Below are positions 25,067-29,842 of a DNA stretch of 40,618 bases, one piece after another. The first letter of the stretch is position 1. Each line of letters opens with the position of its first letter. Origin of the DNA: a virus (taxonomy: Duplodnaviria; Heunggongvirae; Uroviricota; Caudoviricetes). The position numbers and the translations under genes are program-made. The notes below the pieces were generated by a model. The model was not told the origin of the DNA, made no database searches, and saw nothing but the letters and a program-made list of their open reading frames with translations. Location of the stretch: the IMG/VR virus record IMGVR_UViG_2718218168_000006. One strand, given 5' to 3'.

Positions 25067-25141
<75 letters not shown>

Positions 25142-25144
25142 ATA

Positions 25145-25220
<76 letters not shown>

Positions 25221-25222
25221 AC

Positions 25223-25299
25223 TGGACCGCCACCGGGGACTCGAACCTCGCACACTCAACTTAAAGGGTTGACGCTCTTTCCTGATGAGCTAGTGGCGG
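25223..25299 (-). tRNA. atypical tRNA (anticodon loop CCTTTAA, apparent anticodon UUU; C at position 33)
   Basis: 7-bp acceptor stem CCGCCAC/GTGGCGG, T-loop TTCGAGT, encoded CCA; C33 and one T-stem mismatch make identity uncertain. Confidence 0.4.
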
Positions 25300-25300
25300 T

Positions 25301-25376
25301 TGGTGGCCCTTGCTGGATTTGAACCAGCGACCTGGCGATTATGAGTCGCTCGCTCTCACCACTGAGCTAAAGGGCC
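25301..25376 (-). tRNA. tRNA-Ile2/Met (anticodon CAU), ileX/ileZ-like
   Basis: GGCCCTTTAGCTCAGTGGTGAGAGC..CTCATAA..GGTTCAAATCC..AAGGGCC-A-CCA; resembles E. coli ileX. Confidence 0.7.
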
Positions 25377-25493
25377 GGGCGCAGGATAATAACGTTACGA
25401 AATCAATGTTGCAAGCATTCAAAAATCACCTGGTTAAAAATCACCCTTATCTCCTCCACCAGCGCATTCACCATGTCTATCCGAGATAAGTGG

Positions 25494-25521
25494 CACAAAA
25501 AAACCCGCTTGATGCGGGTTT
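25494..25521 (-). terminator. intrinsic terminator upstream of the tRNA cluster (tR-prime-like)
   Basis: aaacccgc-ttgat-gcgggttt hairpin followed on the minus strand by about 7 T. Confidence 0.55.
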
Positions 25522-25641
25522 AAGTTGTGTGGCGAAGCGACCACTCTTAACAGATTAAGATAGTTTTTGCGTACGCGTTAGTGATTTTTTCATAATTATC
25601 TGTATCCTGTGGCTATTTCTCTTGCGCAAAGGATGCTTTTG

Positions 25642-26520
25642 ATGACGCAGCAACTCGAAAACATGCCAATAACAGAAATCGAAATTGCCTACGGTGGAGA
25701 GGCATACGCAGATAATCAGATCGACGCGAAAACATTAGGCGAAGCCTTAACCTCTCTTAGTGCCCTGATTGAACACGCCGAAAAAATAATTAATGGCGAA
25801 ACAGCAGAGCCGAAAGTCAACATCAAGGCAACAAAAGAAGGTTCATTTACTTTGCTTGTTGCTGTGATGGGGAGCATAAAAACTATTAACGCCCTTGGCC
25901 TCGTTGCAGGTGGTGGAGTTGCCGCAGGTGGCGTACTCGGGATAATCGAATGGCTCAAAGGGCGTAAAATCAGCTCCATTGTCGTCGATGAACAAAAAGA
26001 TACAGCAGAAATCGAAGTGGATGGTGAGAAGGTTAAATGCAGTAACGACATTCAAAAATTAATAACCAGTCCAATCATCCGAAAAGAACTGGATAAATTA
26101 ATCTATAAACCCCTGCAGACTGAAAAACCATCCACGTTCTCAGTTTCACAGCAGAAGCATAAGGTAGTCAGGGTGACGCAAGCTGAAGCAGTAAGTTTTA
26201 AAACTGCAAAATCCACCTTTGTCGAGAAAACGCACGTAACGACACGCCAAGCTAATGTACATTTTGCTAATGTTCGATTCAAGCAAGGCAAAAGCTGGGA
26301 TATCATCCTGCCAAATGGCGAAGAAGTTAGCGCATCTATGAAAGATGAGGCTTTTCTTGAACGGGTTGAACACAACCAAGCAGCATTCTGTAAGGGTGAT
26401 CTTTTTGTTGTAGAACTGACAGAAACAACAAAAGAAACAAATGGCGCGCTGTCTAAACCACGCTATAGTATTACTAAGGTTATACGCCACAGAGCGGCGG
26501 CAGATAGGAAACTACTTTAA
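25642..26520 (+). CDS. hypothetical protein with central Gly-rich hydrophobic segment (first gene of 3-gene cargo operon)
   Basis: Track ORF 25609..26520; probable ATG at about 25642 (MTQQLENMP..) after AAGGA; contains FTLLVAVMGSIKTINALGLVAGGGVAAGGVLGIIEWL; AT-rich relative to flanking phage genes. Confidence 0.6.
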   Translation: MTQQLENMPITEIEIAYGGEAYADNQIDAKTLGEALTSLSALIEHAEKIINGETAEPKVNIKATKEGSFTLLVAVMGSIKTINALGLVAGGGVAAGGVLGIIEWLKGRKISSIVVDEQKDTAEIEVDGEKVKCSNDIQKLITSPIIRKELDKLIYKPLQTEKPSTFSVSQQKHKVVRVTQAEAVSFKTAKSTFVEKTHVTTRQANVHFANVRFKQGKSWDIILPNGEEVSASMKDEAFLERVEHNQAAFCKGDLFVVELTETTKETNGALSKPRYSITKVIRHRAAADRKLL

Positions 26521-26523
26521 ATC

Positions 26524-26769
26524 ATGTCAATCCTAAGCATTATGCTTTACATCACTGTATTCATGGCTGTCGCAGCGACGGTCAGATATGCTGTGCTTAG
26601 GTTCTTGGTTTGGGTAAAGCCGAATGCGTATATTGAACTAACCTACACCGATCCTGAAGGCAGAACCGCTAAAAGGAAAGTCAGCGTTAGAAACGAAAAT
26701 GACGCAGAAGAGTTGGCGCTACTGCTACGCGAACTCAAAACTCGCAACGAAGCAAGTGCAGGAAGGTGA
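26524..26769 (+). CDS. small membrane protein (1 predicted TM), second gene of cargo operon
   Basis: 81 aa ORF MSILSIMLYITVFMAVAATVRYAVLRFLVW..; starts 3 nt after the upstream stop. Confidence 0.55.
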   Translation: MSILSIMLYITVFMAVAATVRYAVLRFLVWVKPNAYIELTYTDPEGRTAKRKVSVRNENDAEELALLLRELKTRNEASAGR

Positions 26770-27156
26770 ATGGCGAACACTAAATCCTACCTGGCAATGC
26801 AGGCATGGTTTACCACCCTTATCACTGCGGGATTGAATTTCCTTTTTGACTGGCTTCCTCAATTAGCCTTCTTCAAATCATTGGCGCCTGGAGCTGCTGT
26901 CGGCTTATCTCATGTGGTAATTCTTCTTATCGCTTACATAGGTTTGCCTACGCTTAATGATGTAAGAATGAAAAGGGAAATAAAAACGGCCAGAAAATTC
27001 ATCACGAACTGCCTGGCCAACCCTAACCTAACACCAGACCAAATTGCGCACTACAACCAATGTCTTATCGATCTAGACAATAAGCTATTAAAAAACATAA
27101 ATATTCGTATTGATGCTTTATCTGACGCCGAATCGAAAGCTCAAGCAAACGAGTAG
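26770..27156 (+). CDS. small membrane protein (2 predicted TM) with helical C-terminal tail, third gene of cargo operon
   Basis: 128 aa ORF; ATG immediately follows the upstream TGA; convergent with and ending about 13 nt from the Q stop. Confidence 0.55.
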   Translation: MANTKSYLAMQAWFTTLITAGLNFLFDWLPQLAFFKSLAPGAAVGLSHVVILLIAYIGLPTLNDVRMKREIKTARKFITNCLANPNLTPDQIAHYNQCLIDLDNKLLKNINIRIDALSDAESKAQANE

Positions 27157-27169
27157 TAACAGTCATAAC

Positions 27170-27519
27170 TTATGATAGAATCAAGCATATACATCCATCA
27201 ATAAAGCCTAATGCAGTTTGCAGCTCCTTTCTTATAGTTCCATCTGAGCACCTGCGTTTCTTCGCGATTGAGCGTAGAGAAACACCAATAACAAAGTGAG
27301 CTATGAGCAGCTCATATTCCTCTGGTTTATACTTTCGCAACCGAGCCACACAACCGTCTATCATGATGCCTTCATCATCATCACACTGGAGACGTGACTT
27401 TTTGCCATGTGGCAAAAGCCCCTTGAAGCCCGCTGCTATCGGTTGCCAATCGACACCGCTATTTTCTGCTGCAGCCCATGCCCCCAGCGATCTAAAACCT
27501 CATACATATCACGCCCCAT
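27170..27519 (-). pseudogene. Q: late-gene antiterminator Q (QuuD-like), interrupted by a frameshift
   Basis: N-terminal frame MGRDMYEVLDRWG.. (ATG overlapping rusA stop) stops after 27 codons; C-terminal track ORF 27170..27415 is open upstream as ..AWAAAENSGVDWQPIAAGFKGLLP..; fusion at a C-run near 27481-27485 restores the QuuD-like RWGAWAA motif. Confidence 0.75.
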
Positions 27520-27886
27520 TACCATCACCTCTGATTTCGCAAATCTTCACGCCCAGTCGCCCACCAGGAACGAGCTGACCGCGCACAATATTGATTTCAT
27601 CAAACTGCTCGTCGTCTATGAGAAGCCCCGCATGCGTCAGTGCATCCAGCGGTGCTTTCAGGATATTGTCCAGGTCCCGACGGCGCTTATCCGGCGGCTC
27701 TGCAGTAATTTTTATTGCCAGCCTTCCGGACAGGTTTAATTTCAGCCGCTGCTGGCGAACAATTAGCGCCACATCACGGCGATAACGCTTTCCGGCTTCC
27801 GAGATGAAATACGTATTGCCATGACGTCGCCAGTAGGTATTCACCGTCGGCGGGTAAGGCAAAACAAATTCTATGCGTTCAGTCAT
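27509..27886 (-). CDS. rusA: Holliday junction resolvase RusA
   Basis: 125 aa ORF with RusA motifs (PPTVNTYW..DLDNILKAPLDALTHAGLLIDD). Confidence 0.85.
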   Translation of the reverse strand: MTERIEFVLPYPPTVNTYWRRHGNTYFISEAGKRYRRDVALIVRQQRLKLNLSGRLAIKITAEPPDKRRRDLDNILKAPLDALTHAGLLIDDEQFDEINIVRGQLVPGGRLGVKICEIRGDGNGA

Positions 27887-29449: not shown

Positions 29450-29842
29450 TTACTGCCCAGTTTTAACGAAGTTTTTAAAGGAAACAATTGCCTGATAGGG
29501 GTTTGGTTGACAGCCAAACATATTATCGCAAAAAGGCTTGATGAAAATTCTTGCGGATCCATCTTCATTTGGCATTTTACTCACTTGATAAGCGAGGAAT
29601 GGGCTATTTGGTGAAGGGTTATAAGTGGAAATTAGCGTGTCTGTCGCCGTTTGAATTTTCCATGAGGAATTATTAGCCAACCAGAATTGCGCTCGTTTCC
29701 AATAAAAGTCACATTGCTTTTCATCATTACATGTTAGTGGCTTCATTGCTTCTGCTTTCAACGCTGGATCGACCTTTGCTGCACACCCTCCCAACATTAC
29801 TGTTGCAATCATTACACCTGCGACTAAAACAAGTTTCTTCAT
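29450..29842 (-). CDS. lipoprotein (signal peptide plus lipobox LGGC), cargo gene
   Basis: 130 aa ORF MKKLVLVAGVMIATVMLGGCAAK.. with 4 further Cys; own terminator downstream. Confidence 0.7.
   Translation of the reverse strand: MKKLVLVAGVMIATVMLGGCAAKVDPALKAEAMKPLTCNDEKQCDFYWKRAQFWLANNSSWKIQTATDTLISTYNPSPNSPFLAYQVSKMPNEDGSARIFIKPFCDNMFGCQPNPYQAIVSFKNFVKTGQ

What the first reader, a model, noticed from the sequence alone, without database searches (positions are those of the whole stretch)
25609..27156. Unrecognised three-gene membrane-protein operon inserted convergently between Q and the tRNA/lysis region
Three translationally coupled plus-strand genes (about 290 aa with a Gly-rich hydrophobic core, then 81 aa and 128 aa membrane proteins) sit where lambdoid phages carry cargo such as stx. 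They are transcribed opposite to all flanking late genes, are visibly more AT-rich than the phage backbone, and match nothing I recognise. A soluble/sensor-like protein plus small membrane proteins is an architecture seen in abortive-infection and exclusion systems (RexAB is only a loose analogy, with no sequence similarity claimed). The operon ends about 13 nt from the Q stop codon.
Basis: partly seen in the sequence, partly recalled or inferred. Interest (0 to 1): 0.75.

Follow-up and report, generated by a model that had tools for sequence, protein, structure and literature searches.

The report
Rex-like three-gene prophage defence candidate
A small, self-contained three-gene cassette (one cytoplasmic protein of a catalogued but untested anti-phage candidate family, plus two tiny inner-membrane proteins) rides as cargo on many prophages and plasmids and in some phages sits exactly where lambda keeps its RexAB exclusion genes, so it is most likely an uncharacterised phage-exclusion system.

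Summary
Three tightly coupled plus-strand genes sit convergent with Q, 13 nt from its stop: A at 25642-26520 (292 aa; the true start is the ATG, not the GTG at 25609), B at 26524-26769 (81 aa) and C at 26770-27156 (128 aa). The cassette's GC is 43% against 51% for the rest of the window. All three ORFs are under strong purifying selection (dN/dS 0.04-0.10).

"Matches nothing" is wrong for A. It belongs to a large family (2,914 clusters at 50% identity) already catalogued as PADLOC candidate PDC-S42 (untested), NCBIfam NF053583 and phrog_3243. B and C have no annotated relatives, PGAP misses B, and neither is recognised as part of PDC-S42.

The A-B-C trio, with its own ~120-nt upstream region, recurs in lambdoid prophages (three different slots), Mu-like and other prophages, an integrative island, a small Mob plasmid, Pseudomonas megaplasmids and a Vibrio PM2-like element. 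In Plesiomonas it lies directly after cI, the rexAB position. A solo A homolog does the same in Halopseudomonas. There is no homology to RexA or RexB.

Best reading (about 0.5): a lysogen-expressed exclusion or abortive-infection module acting at the inner membrane. The mechanism is inferred and untested.

The parts
25522..25641 (+). Cassette's own upstream region (probable promoter, leader and Shine-Dalgarno AAAGGA). It holds a TTAACA box that reads TTGACA in the Plesiomonas copy.
   Evidence: About 120 nt conserved with the Q-slot copies (L031, L033) and the cI-slot copies (L035, L036). Homology to other lambdoid phages stops at 25521. The exact promoter hexamers are not established.
25642..26520 (+). 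Gene A, 292 aa: PDC-S42 / NF053583 ('LAPAL') / phrog_3243 family. It has an N-terminal alpha/beta domain, a conserved Gly/Ala-rich hydrophobic helical hairpin followed by KGRK (residues ~79-110), a middle beta-rich region and a C-terminal OB-fold-like barrel (residues ~195-284).
   Evidence: dN/dS 0.035-0.055.
26524..26769 (+). Gene B, 81 aa: an N-terminal TM helix (residues ~3-25), then a short cytoplasmic domain with the conserved P-x-x-(I/V)-x-(I/L)...D-x-x-G motif. PGAP does not annotate it.
   Evidence: (phrog_27630). dN/dS 0.06-0.10.
26770..27156 (+). Gene C, 128 aa: a two-helix membrane hairpin (helices 4-28 and 30-57) followed by two long charged cytoplasmic helices (62-82, 89-127).
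   Evidence: (phrog_26468). dN/dS 0.08-0.10.
25632..25639 (.). Left copy of the 8-bp direct repeat GATGCTTT, an endpoint of the natural deletion seen in E. coli TUM9757.
27112..27119 (.). Right copy of the 8-bp direct repeat GATGCTTT, inside the 3' end of gene C.
   Evidence: The C tail beyond it is conserved in other genera.
27170..27520 (-). Context: antiterminator Q gene (PF06530 type), convergent with C. In this window it is frameshifted by a 1-nt deletion in a G run near 27481-27485.
25501..25521 (-). Context: minus-strand intrinsic terminator (AAACCCGC-ATCAA-GCGGGTTT followed by T7), probably the late-operon terminator tR'. It marks the left boundary of the cassette.
25067..25376 (-). 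Context: cluster of four phage tRNA genes (Gly-TCC, Thr-TGT, Lys-TTT, CAT anticodon) between the terminator and the lysis genes.

Best explanation
The 1.64-kb segment 25522-27156 is a self-contained mobile cargo cassette (own upstream region, then A, B, C). Most likely it protects the lysogen or plasmid host against other phages by exclusion or abortive infection at the inner membrane.

Shown:
- It is three real, co-conserved, translationally coupled genes.
- A belongs to a very large family of ~290-310-aa non-enzymatic proteins listed as defence candidate PDC-S42.
- B and C are small inner-membrane proteins whose soluble parts are predicted to face the cytoplasm.
- The cassette hops between unrelated mobile elements and slots, including the cI-downstream (rexAB) slot.
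- It is dispensable for the prophage.

Inferred:
- A is a cytoplasmic sensor/effector whose C-terminal OB-fold-like domain recognises a phage-made nucleic acid or protein.
- On activation, its conserved Gly/Ala-rich hydrophobic hairpin, together with the B/C membrane proteins where present, compromises the inner membrane (depolarisation or leak). This would stop the infecting phage, in the way RexA is thought to activate RexB.
- A is the core protein, since it occurs alone in many lineages. B and C would be lineage-specific membrane partners (effector, anchor or restraint).
- Its placement antisense to the late operon may let the resident phage's own late transcription silence it during induction.
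For: - Gene reality and coupling.
- PDC-S42 match at E = 3.3e-53. The match persists in divergent members. [quoted passage not shown]
- Family size is 2,914 clusters. No enzymatic motif appears among the near-invariant residues.
- The trio is conserved in two E. coli prophage slots, an Enterobacter island (18), a Serratia prophage (21), Orbaceae/Gilliamella Mu-like prophages (22, 61, 85), a MobA plasmid contig (23), Pseudomonas megaplasmids and a Vibrio PM2-like element (88-92).
- The cI-adjacent, co-oriented position occurs in Plesiomonas and, for solo A, in Halopseudomonas. In Lactobacillus phage A2 the gene lies between endolysin and int.
- The cassette travels with ~120 nt of its own upstream DNA and ends at the C stop codon.
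- Low GC.
- A natural deletion exists in the otherwise matching prophage region of TUM9757 (same Q, RusA, DUF968, tRNA and lysis genes over the 6.6 kb compared).
- A model: pLDDT 81.6, C-terminal OB-like barrel. A conserved hydrophobic segment followed by KGRK.
- B and C topology.
Against: - There is no experimental evidence for any member. PDC-S42 is untested.
- None of the ~20 distinct loci I examined showed A embedded in BREX or RM. Only one (L024) lies near recognisable defence-type genes (BrxR, an SNF2/NOV_C helicase).
- The hydrophobic segment is only borderline for a TM helix (1.3-2.0) and is modelled inside a soluble fold.
- In Halomonadaceae Mu-like prophages A sits inside the head-gene block.
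- The pR' position, and hence the antisense self-silencing idea, is unresolved. The candidate in the window is not conserved in L031.
Confidence: 0.5

Rival explanations
1. Addiction or stabilisation module, or another lysogenic-conversion function unrelated to phages. A (or C) would be a latent membrane toxin and the small partners its restraint, selected because it stabilises or benefits the mobile element (post-segregational killing, stress or envelope fitness effects).
For: It occurs on plasmids, including a ~6-kb MobA contig and 370-640-kb Pseudomonas megaplasmids. The genes are small, tightly coupled and include membrane proteins. No defence-island neighbourhood was seen in most loci.
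Against: A occurs alone in many lineages, with no partner that could serve as antidote. The cI-adjacent placement and PADLOC's embedding-based candidate status point to phage conflict. Toxin-antitoxin and abortive-infection roles also overlap, so this is only partly a rival.
Confidence: 0.2
2. Superinfection exclusion at the entry step. B and/or C in the inner membrane would block DNA injection by incoming phages (SieA-, Imm- or HK97 gp15-like logic), with A as a regulator or accessory.
For: There are two small inner-membrane proteins with cytoplasmic tails. The carriers are prophages, including the repressor-adjacent slot expressed in lysogens.
Against: The conserved core of the family is the ~290-aa cytoplasmic A protein, which is often found without B or C. 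Known entry blockers are usually single small membrane proteins or lipoproteins. There is no similarity to any Sie family in PADLOC, Pfam or PHROGs.
Confidence: 0.12
3. A phage structural, morphogenesis or lysis-accessory protein, as implied by the NCBIfam name 'LAPAL motif-containing putative phage structural protein'.
For: The NCBIfam equivalog match scores 225 bits against a cut-off of 60. In Halomonas and Chromohalobacter Mu-like prophages the gene sits between the Phage_tail_S-type and protease genes of the head block. It is adjacent to lysis genes in the Orbaceae Mu-like prophage and in phage A2.
Against: In the window it is antisense to the late operon. It is present on plasmids and on an island lacking virion genes. 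It follows cI in Plesiomonas and Halopseudomonas. It lies in the nin region of other E. coli prophages. It is deleted from the matching prophage region of TUM9757. It shows no fold similarity to virion proteins. It was not found by megablast in any of 50,697 sequenced phage genomes, and tblastn found only four distant solo or Vibrio homologs.
Confidence: 0.05
4. Decaying or non-functional ORFs in a defective prophage.
For: The adjacent Q gene is frameshifted in this window. PGAP does not call B.
Against: dN/dS is 0.035-0.10 for all three ORFs, with dS of about 0.9-1.6. The ORFs are intact in all lineages examined.
Confidence: 0.02

Closest known systems
PADLOC phage-defence candidate PDC-S42 (Payne et al., bioRxiv 10.1101/2024.01.29.577857); same family as NCBIfam NF053583 and phrog_3243
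   Same: Gene A is a full-length member: PDLC05015 at E = 3.3e-53 over residues 22-299, NF053583 at 225 bits, phrog_3243 at E = 2.7e-94.
   Different: PDC-S42 is defined as a single-gene candidate and has not been tested. Here, and across gamma-proteobacterial mobile elements, A is followed by two conserved small membrane-protein genes that no database links to it. None of the loci I sampled was embedded in BREX, DISARM or type I RM.
RexA/RexB exclusion system of phage lambda
   Same: Architecture: a ~280-290-aa cytoplasmic protein followed by small polytopic inner-membrane protein(s). Carrier: lambdoid prophages. Position: in Plesiomonas directly downstream of and co-oriented with cI, opposite cro-cII.
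EACC1, a protease-activated pore-forming defence effector (Pfam PF19953; bioRxiv 10.1101/2025.11.14.688446)
   Same: The concept is similar: a latent, non-enzymatic protein whose hydrophobic segment is masked by beta-strands until activation. There is a faint Pfam hit of A residues 81-140 to EACC1 positions 42-102 (E = 0.016).
   Different: The hit is below Pfam's threshold and is seen in only 3 of 82 family members. No protease gene is adjacent in any locus. A is three times larger and has extra domains.
Class II holins and holin-like 2-TM abortive-infection effectors
   Same: C has two TM helices, a predicted N-in/C-in topology and a long charged cytoplasmic C-terminus.
   Different: C matches no holin family in Pfam or PHROGs. 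It is 128 aa with about 70 cytoplasmic residues. It is always linked to A and B, not to an endolysin.

Membership tests
PADLOC PDC-S42 | Protein matches a PDC-S42 profile HMM | tested here: met
   PDLC05015 at E = 3.3e-53, 179 bits, residues 22-299 against model 4-294/302. Divergent family members also match.
PADLOC PDC-S42 | Single-gene system (the 'S' class) | tested here: not met
   In the window and in all relatives with at least 35% identity, plus Pseudomonas megaplasmids and a Vibrio element, A is followed by coupled B and C genes. Solo A does exist in other lineages.
PADLOC PDC-S42 | Found embedded within BREX, DISARM or type I RM loci (the basis of the candidate call) | tested here: inconclusive
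   Not seen in any of the ~20 distinct loci sampled. The original embedded instances could not be retrieved, as the supplements had no PDC-S42 entry.
PADLOC PDC-S42 | Demonstrated anti-phage activity | not testable with these tools
   The source paper describes the 145 PDCs as untested. No paper mentions PDC-S42, the LAPAL motif or the RefSeq accessions.
NCBIfam NF053583 'LAPAL motif-containing putative phage structural protein' | Score above the curated cut-off | tested here: met
   225.3 bits against a cut-off of 60, E = 1e-66.
NCBIfam NF053583 'LAPAL motif-containing putative phage structural protein' | Structural (virion) role implied by the name | tested here: not met
   Context argues against it: antisense to late genes, on plasmids and islands, downstream of cI, and deleted in TUM9757. 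No fold match to virion proteins. Virion proteomics is not available.
Lambda RexAB | Homology of the large protein to RexA | tested here: not met
   No PADLOC RexA hit at E <= 1, while lambda RexA hits that model at 9e-110. hhalign of A6 against RexA gives probability 0.2%.
Lambda RexAB | Homology of the membrane protein to RexB (four TM helices) | tested here: not met
   No PADLOC RexB hit for B or C. hhalign of C against RexB gives probability 13% over 43 TM columns. B has 1 TM and C has 2.
Lambda RexAB | Located downstream of and co-transcribed with the cI repressor gene in the prophage | tested here: inconclusive
   Not in this window, where the cassette is in the Q slot. It is met positionally by the 82-86%-identical Plesiomonas cassette and by solo A in Halopseudomonas. 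Co-transcription was not tested, and the cassette carries its own upstream region.
EACC1 (PF19953) | Pfam match above the gathering threshold | tested here: not met
   15.6 bits against a cut-off of 23.6, E = 0.016, in 3 of 82 members. No EACC1 sequence was obtainable for a profile-profile test.
EACC1 (PF19953) | Adjacent cysteine or caspase-like protease that activates it | tested here: not met
   No protease gene is adjacent in any locus examined.
Pfam DUF7946 (PF25678) | Match to the domain model | tested here: inconclusive
   34 of 82 divergent family members hit it weakly (best E = 1.4e-6), covering the N-terminal ~100 residues. The window protein itself does not. There is no literature on DUF7946.

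The most novel reading that the evidence does not exclude
A-B-C would be a non-homologous functional replacement of RexAB: a new, widespread family of lysogen-expressed abortive-infection systems. In this reading the OB-fold-bearing A protein senses a phage replication or recombination intermediate, then uses its glycine-rich hydrophobic hairpin, gated or amplified by the B/C membrane proteins, to depolarise the cell. In the Q-slot version the resident phage would escape its own cassette because Q-dependent late transcription runs antisense through it. The ~2,900-cluster solo-A family would then be a single-protein sensor-plus-pore immune effector found from Lactobacillus phages to Pseudomonas.
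Probability: 0.2. Interest if true: 0.8.

Novelty: new variant of a known kind. Interest (0 to 1): 0.58.

Why it matters
If it is confirmed, three things follow.

- **A candidate becomes a system.** An untested database candidate (PDC-S42) would become a validated defence system with a corrected gene content of three genes, including an 81-aa gene that standard annotation misses.
- **RexAB gains an independent analogue.** RexAB is one of the oldest unsolved phage-exclusion systems. An evolutionarily independent analogue in the same genomic slot would allow comparative tests of how a cytoplasmic sensor triggers membrane failure.
- **A large unknown family gets a function.** A family of about 2,900 clusters, carried by phages, plasmids and islands across Proteobacteria, Firmicutes and Actinobacteria, would be assigned a role.

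A natural knock-out is already available for a clean isogenic comparison: E. coli TUM9757 carries the matching prophage region with a 1,480-bp microhomology deletion of A-B-C.

Tried and rejected
- **Sequence searches with no result.** Pfam found nothing significant for A, B or C. PDB sequence searches with the single protein and with the profile found nothing.
- **Locus retrieval.** The search for related loci failed on the divergent alignment and gave only 4 loci with the close one.
- **Literature.** Nothing for PDC-S42, the LAPAL motif, DUF7946 or the RefSeq accessions. No hit in the DefensePredictor supplements. Brenes & Laub 2025, a screen of E. coli prophage defences, is not held, so I cannot exclude that this cassette was tested there. 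The phage BH1 paper was irrelevant.
- **EACC1.** The lead could not be tested by profile-profile comparison because no sequence was available.
- **TUM9757 as an ancestral empty site.** I considered this and rejected it. The junction keeps A's Shine-Dalgarno sequence and C's last 12 codons, and that tail is conserved in C proteins of other genera, so it is a deletion between 8-bp repeats.
- **Late promoter.** I proposed the minus-strand site TTGATG-18-TATCAT at 27201-27172 as pR', but its -10 element is not conserved in the Citrobacter-type locus and no equivalent is found there. The late-promoter position stays open.
- **RexAB homology.** Tested and rejected.
Full report
**1. What is in the sequence.**

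The three plus-strand ORFs are present as described.
- A ends with TAA at 26518-26520.
- B starts at 26524 and ends with TGA at 26767-26769.
- C starts at 26770 and ends with TAG at 27154-27156.
- The convergent Q gene's stop codon is at 27170-27172, so 13 nt separate the two genes.

AGGA-type ribosome-binding sites precede B and C.

PGAP, the homolog alignments and a conserved AAAGGA Shine-Dalgarno sequence all place A's start at the ATG at 25642, giving 292 aa, and not at the GTG at 25609.

The neighbours are all on the minus strand.
- To the right are Q (PF06530), RusA and DUF968.
- To the left are an intrinsic terminator (25521-25501), four tRNA genes (25067-25376), an S21-type holin, DUF1327/YdfR and lysozyme.

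Comparison with E. coli TUM1880 shows this is a Qin/Rac-like lambdoid prophage integrated at a tRNA-Ser gene, with an HK97-type head and a lambda-type tail.

The cassette is 43.1% GC against 51.1% for the rest of the window, which puts it in the lowest 0.6% of windows of the same size.

**2. The ORFs are real genes.**

I compared them with the Citrobacter-type (L031) and Plesiomonas (L036) copies.

| Gene | dN/dS |
|---|---|
| A | 0.035-0.055 |
| B | 0.06-0.10 |
| C | 0.08-0.10 |

dS was about 0.9-1.6. B is therefore a genuine gene even though PGAP leaves it unannotated.

**3. Database identity.**

A has no Pfam domain, but it is not unknown to databases.
- It matches PADLOC's PDC-S42 at E = 3.3e-53.
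- It matches NCBIfam NF053583, 'LAPAL motif-containing putative phage structural protein', at 225 bits against a cut-off of 60.
- It matches phrog_3243.

PDC-S42 is one of 145 untested 'phage defence candidates'. These were proposed because family members are found embedded inside BREX, DISARM or type I RM loci.

B and C match only PHROG families of unknown function. They match nothing in PADLOC, Pfam or NCBIfam.

No paper mentions PDC-S42, the LAPAL motif, DUF7946 or the RefSeq accessions.

**4. Size and nature of the A family.**

A profile search of 1.84 billion representative proteins found 2,914 clusters at E <= 1e-3 and 1,472 at E <= 1e-10. Nearly all are 280-320 aa and align end to end. 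Divergent members still hit PDC-S42.

The near-invariant positions are Y17, L32, G67, S68, G86, R147, P157, W219, D235, F238 and V280. They do not form a recognisable catalytic motif.

The AlphaFold model (pLDDT 81.6, pTM 0.74) has four parts.
- An N-terminal beta-alpha-beta-beta unit.
- Two short helices (79-85 and 98-105) joined by a low-confidence Gly-rich loop.
- A beta-rich middle region.
- A C-terminal five-stranded barrel with a helix between strands 3 and 4 (195-284).

In the viral structure library, the only matches with E <= 0.001 were four uncharacterised phage proteins, three of them aligned over roughly the full length and one annotated DUF6575.

The Gly/Ala-rich stretch is the most hydrophobic 19-residue window in 74 of 82 divergent members. 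Its Kyte-Doolittle score is 1.3-2.0, and a basic K-G-R-K-type motif follows it.
- 34 of 82 members weakly hit Pfam DUF7946 through their N-terminal ~100 residues.
- The window protein has a sub-threshold hit to EACC1 across the hydrophobic stretch (E = 0.016).

EACC1 has recently been shown to be a latent pore-former. The resemblance is only a lead, because the threshold is not met and no protease gene is ever adjacent.

**5. B and C.**

B has an N-terminal TM helix and then a basic stretch. About 45 residues follow, carrying the motif P-x-x-(I/V)-x-(I/L)...D-x-x-G, and are predicted to be cytoplasmic.

C is modelled as four helices (pLDDT 78).
- Helices 4-28 and 30-57 form a membrane hairpin.
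- Helices 62-82 and 89-127 are long, charged and predicted to be cytoplasmic.

C's relatives form 38 clusters. They are confined to Enterobacterales, Orbaceae and a few metagenome contigs, and none carries a name.

**6. The trio is a conserved mobile unit.**

Every locus whose A is at least 35% identical to the window's A has B and C immediately downstream. The A-B gap is 3-18 nt, and B and C abut or overlap. Contexts carrying the full trio are listed below.

| Context |
|---|
| This Q-tR' slot in E. coli (37 of 5,426 complete genomes) and in Citrobacter-type prophages with different replication modules |
| The hok-DUF968 slot of other E. coli lambdoid prophages, co-oriented with the early genes (A only 52% identical) |
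| An Enterobacter hormaechei integrative island next to bssR, yliI, gstB and dacC |
| A Serratia prophage beside tail-fibre assembly genes |
| Orbaceae and Gilliamella Mu-like prophages just upstream of the holin |
| A ~6-kb contig carrying a MobA relaxase |
| Pseudomonas megaplasmids of the pBM413 type (308/84/139 aa; C profile E = 1e-6, B profile E = 4e-4) |
| A Vibrio PM2-like temperate element, next to its integrase (284/83/161 aa) |

In more distant lineages A occurs alone.
- Pseudomonas islands at the pheT-ihfA site, one of them near BrxR and an SNF2/NOV_C helicase.
- Halomonadaceae Mu-like prophages.
- Lactobacillus phage A2, between endolysin and integrase.
- An uncultured bacterium (MAG).

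**7. The Rex position.**

In Plesiomonas shigelloides and a related contig, a cassette whose proteins are 82-86% identical to the window's lies directly downstream of the prophage repressor gene (HTH_3 plus Peptidase_S24). It is on the same strand as the repressor and opposite the cro- and cII-like genes. That is the position of rexA-rexB in lambda.

Independently, a solo A homolog sits right after an S24-type repressor in a Halopseudomonas prophage. It belongs to the distant PDC-S42 core group, whose sampled members are about 23-32% identical to the window's A.

The Q-slot and cI-slot copies share about 120 nt upstream of A. That stretch includes a TTAACA/TTGACA box and the Shine-Dalgarno sequence. 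Homology ends at C's stop codon. The mobile unit in the window is therefore 25522-27156, and it probably brings its own promoter.

Homology to RexAB was tested and rejected.
- Lambda RexA and RexB hit their PADLOC models at 9e-110 and 9e-61, whereas A, B and C do not hit them.
- hhalign probabilities are 0.2% for A versus RexA and 13% for C versus RexB. The latter rests on TM composition only.

**8. A natural deletion.**

E. coli TUM9757 carries the matching prophage region, with the same Q, RusA, DUF968, tRNA, holin and lysozyme proteins over the 6.6 kb compared, but it lacks A-B-C.

Its sequence runs from window position 25639 straight to 27120. The join falls across an 8-bp direct repeat, GATGCTTT, found at 25632-25639 and 27112-27119.

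The junction retains A's Shine-Dalgarno sequence and the last 12 codons of C. That C tail is conserved in C proteins of Klebsiella, Citrobacter, Plesiomonas and Salmonella.

This is therefore a microhomology deletion and not an ancestral empty site. It shows that the prophage persists without the cassette.

**9. Relation to late transcription.**

The minus-strand terminator at 25521-25501 begins a 122-nt segment that is shared with lambdoid phages carrying unrelated Q genes, such as Evi and PPompW. In those phages it lies within about 90 nt of Q. It is therefore probably tR'.

In the window, the only DNA between Q and this terminator that does not belong to the cassette is the 13-nt spacer. 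So pR' probably overlaps the 3' end of Q, and late transcription would then run antisense through C, B and A.

A promoter-like site, TTGATG-18-TATCAT, lies at 27201-27172. Its -10 element is not conserved in the Citrobacter-type locus, and no equivalent was found there. This point remains an inference.

**10. Interpretation.**

The evidence establishes a conserved, selected, horizontally mobile cargo cassette. Its core protein is a catalogued defence candidate. Its partners are inner-membrane proteins. It repeatedly lands in lysogenic-conversion slots, including the repressor-adjacent one.

The most economical reading is a lysogen-expressed exclusion or abortive-infection system that acts at the inner membrane. 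It would work like RexAB without being related to it (confidence about 0.5).

The sensing role of the OB-like domain, the membrane action of the Gly-rich hairpin and the roles of B and C are all inferences.

I considered four rivals.
- An addiction or other conversion function (0.2).
- An entry-blocking superinfection-exclusion system (0.12).
- The structural role implied by the NCBIfam name (0.05), which the contexts contradict.
- Non-function (0.02), which dN/dS contradicts.

**11. Novelty and score.**

The A family is already listed as a candidate, so the finding is not unrecognised. Four things are new here.
- The system's gene content: two conserved membrane partners, one of which annotation misses.
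- Its modular boundaries.
- Its recurrence in the rexAB slot.
- A natural deletion mutant.

I rate it a new variant of a known kind (a prophage- or plasmid-borne exclusion module) and give it an interest of 0.58. One caveat applies: a 2025 screen of E. coli prophage defences (Brenes & Laub) could not be consulted.

Noticed in passing
window 27481-27485 (minus-strand G run inside Q, 27170-27520): Q is frameshifted. The window has GGGGG where TUM1880 and almost all other carriers have GGGGGG, so the first ~12 codons of the 116-aa Q are out of frame. Among 49 complete E. coli genomes covering this stretch, only strain S51 (NZ_CP015995) matches the window exactly. It is either a private inactivating mutation, making the prophage defective, or a homopolymer sequencing error.
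   Followed up: yes
window 25434-25544 (-): PGAP annotates a 36-aa 'antiterminator' CDS (WP_086259018) here in related genomes. It spans the intrinsic terminator hairpin at 25521-25501 and the shared leader segment, so it is probably a spurious ORF over the late-operon terminator region and not a gene.
   Followed up: partly
window 29450-29842 (-): A 130-aa ORF with a lipoprotein-type signal (MKKLVLVAGVMIATVMLGGC...) occupies the hokD-DUF968 slot. In other E. coli lambdoid prophages (L002-L006) exactly this slot holds a diverged (52% identical) A-B-C trio instead, so it is a second variable cargo slot of this prophage family.
   Followed up: partly
window 25301-25376 (-): ARAGORN calls the CAT-anticodon tRNA tRNA-Met, whereas PGAP calls the identical gene tRNA-Ile, which implies a lysidine-modified Ile2 type. 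Rfam 'Plastid-ycf2' hits on the plus strand here are antisense-tRNA false positives.
   Followed up: no
L027 9529-10194 (E. coli TUM1880 prophage, nin region; equivalent part of the window not checked): The related prophage encodes an epoxyqueuosine reductase QueH between the DUF977 gene and hokD. One metagenome protein (P0028, 357 aa) joins a QueH/DUF208 domain to a 95%-identical fragment of protein A, which suggests a recombinant or misassembled junction between these two cargo regions.
   Followed up: no
L007-L011 4747-5499 and L024 11177-11848: A PF12869 'tRNA_anti-like' OB-fold protein lies next to the A-B-C trio in the Enterobacter island. It also lies beside BrxR and an SNF2/NOV_C helicase near solo A in P. 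aeruginosa. This may be a recurrent neighbour in defence-type islands.
   Followed up: no
L026 7001-7945 and L038 9001-9969: In Halomonas and Chromohalobacter Mu-like prophages the solo A homolog is inserted at the same point inside the head-gene block, between a Phage_tail_S-type gene and the Mu protease gene. This is an unusual place for a moron and probably explains the NCBIfam 'structural protein' label.
   Followed up: partly
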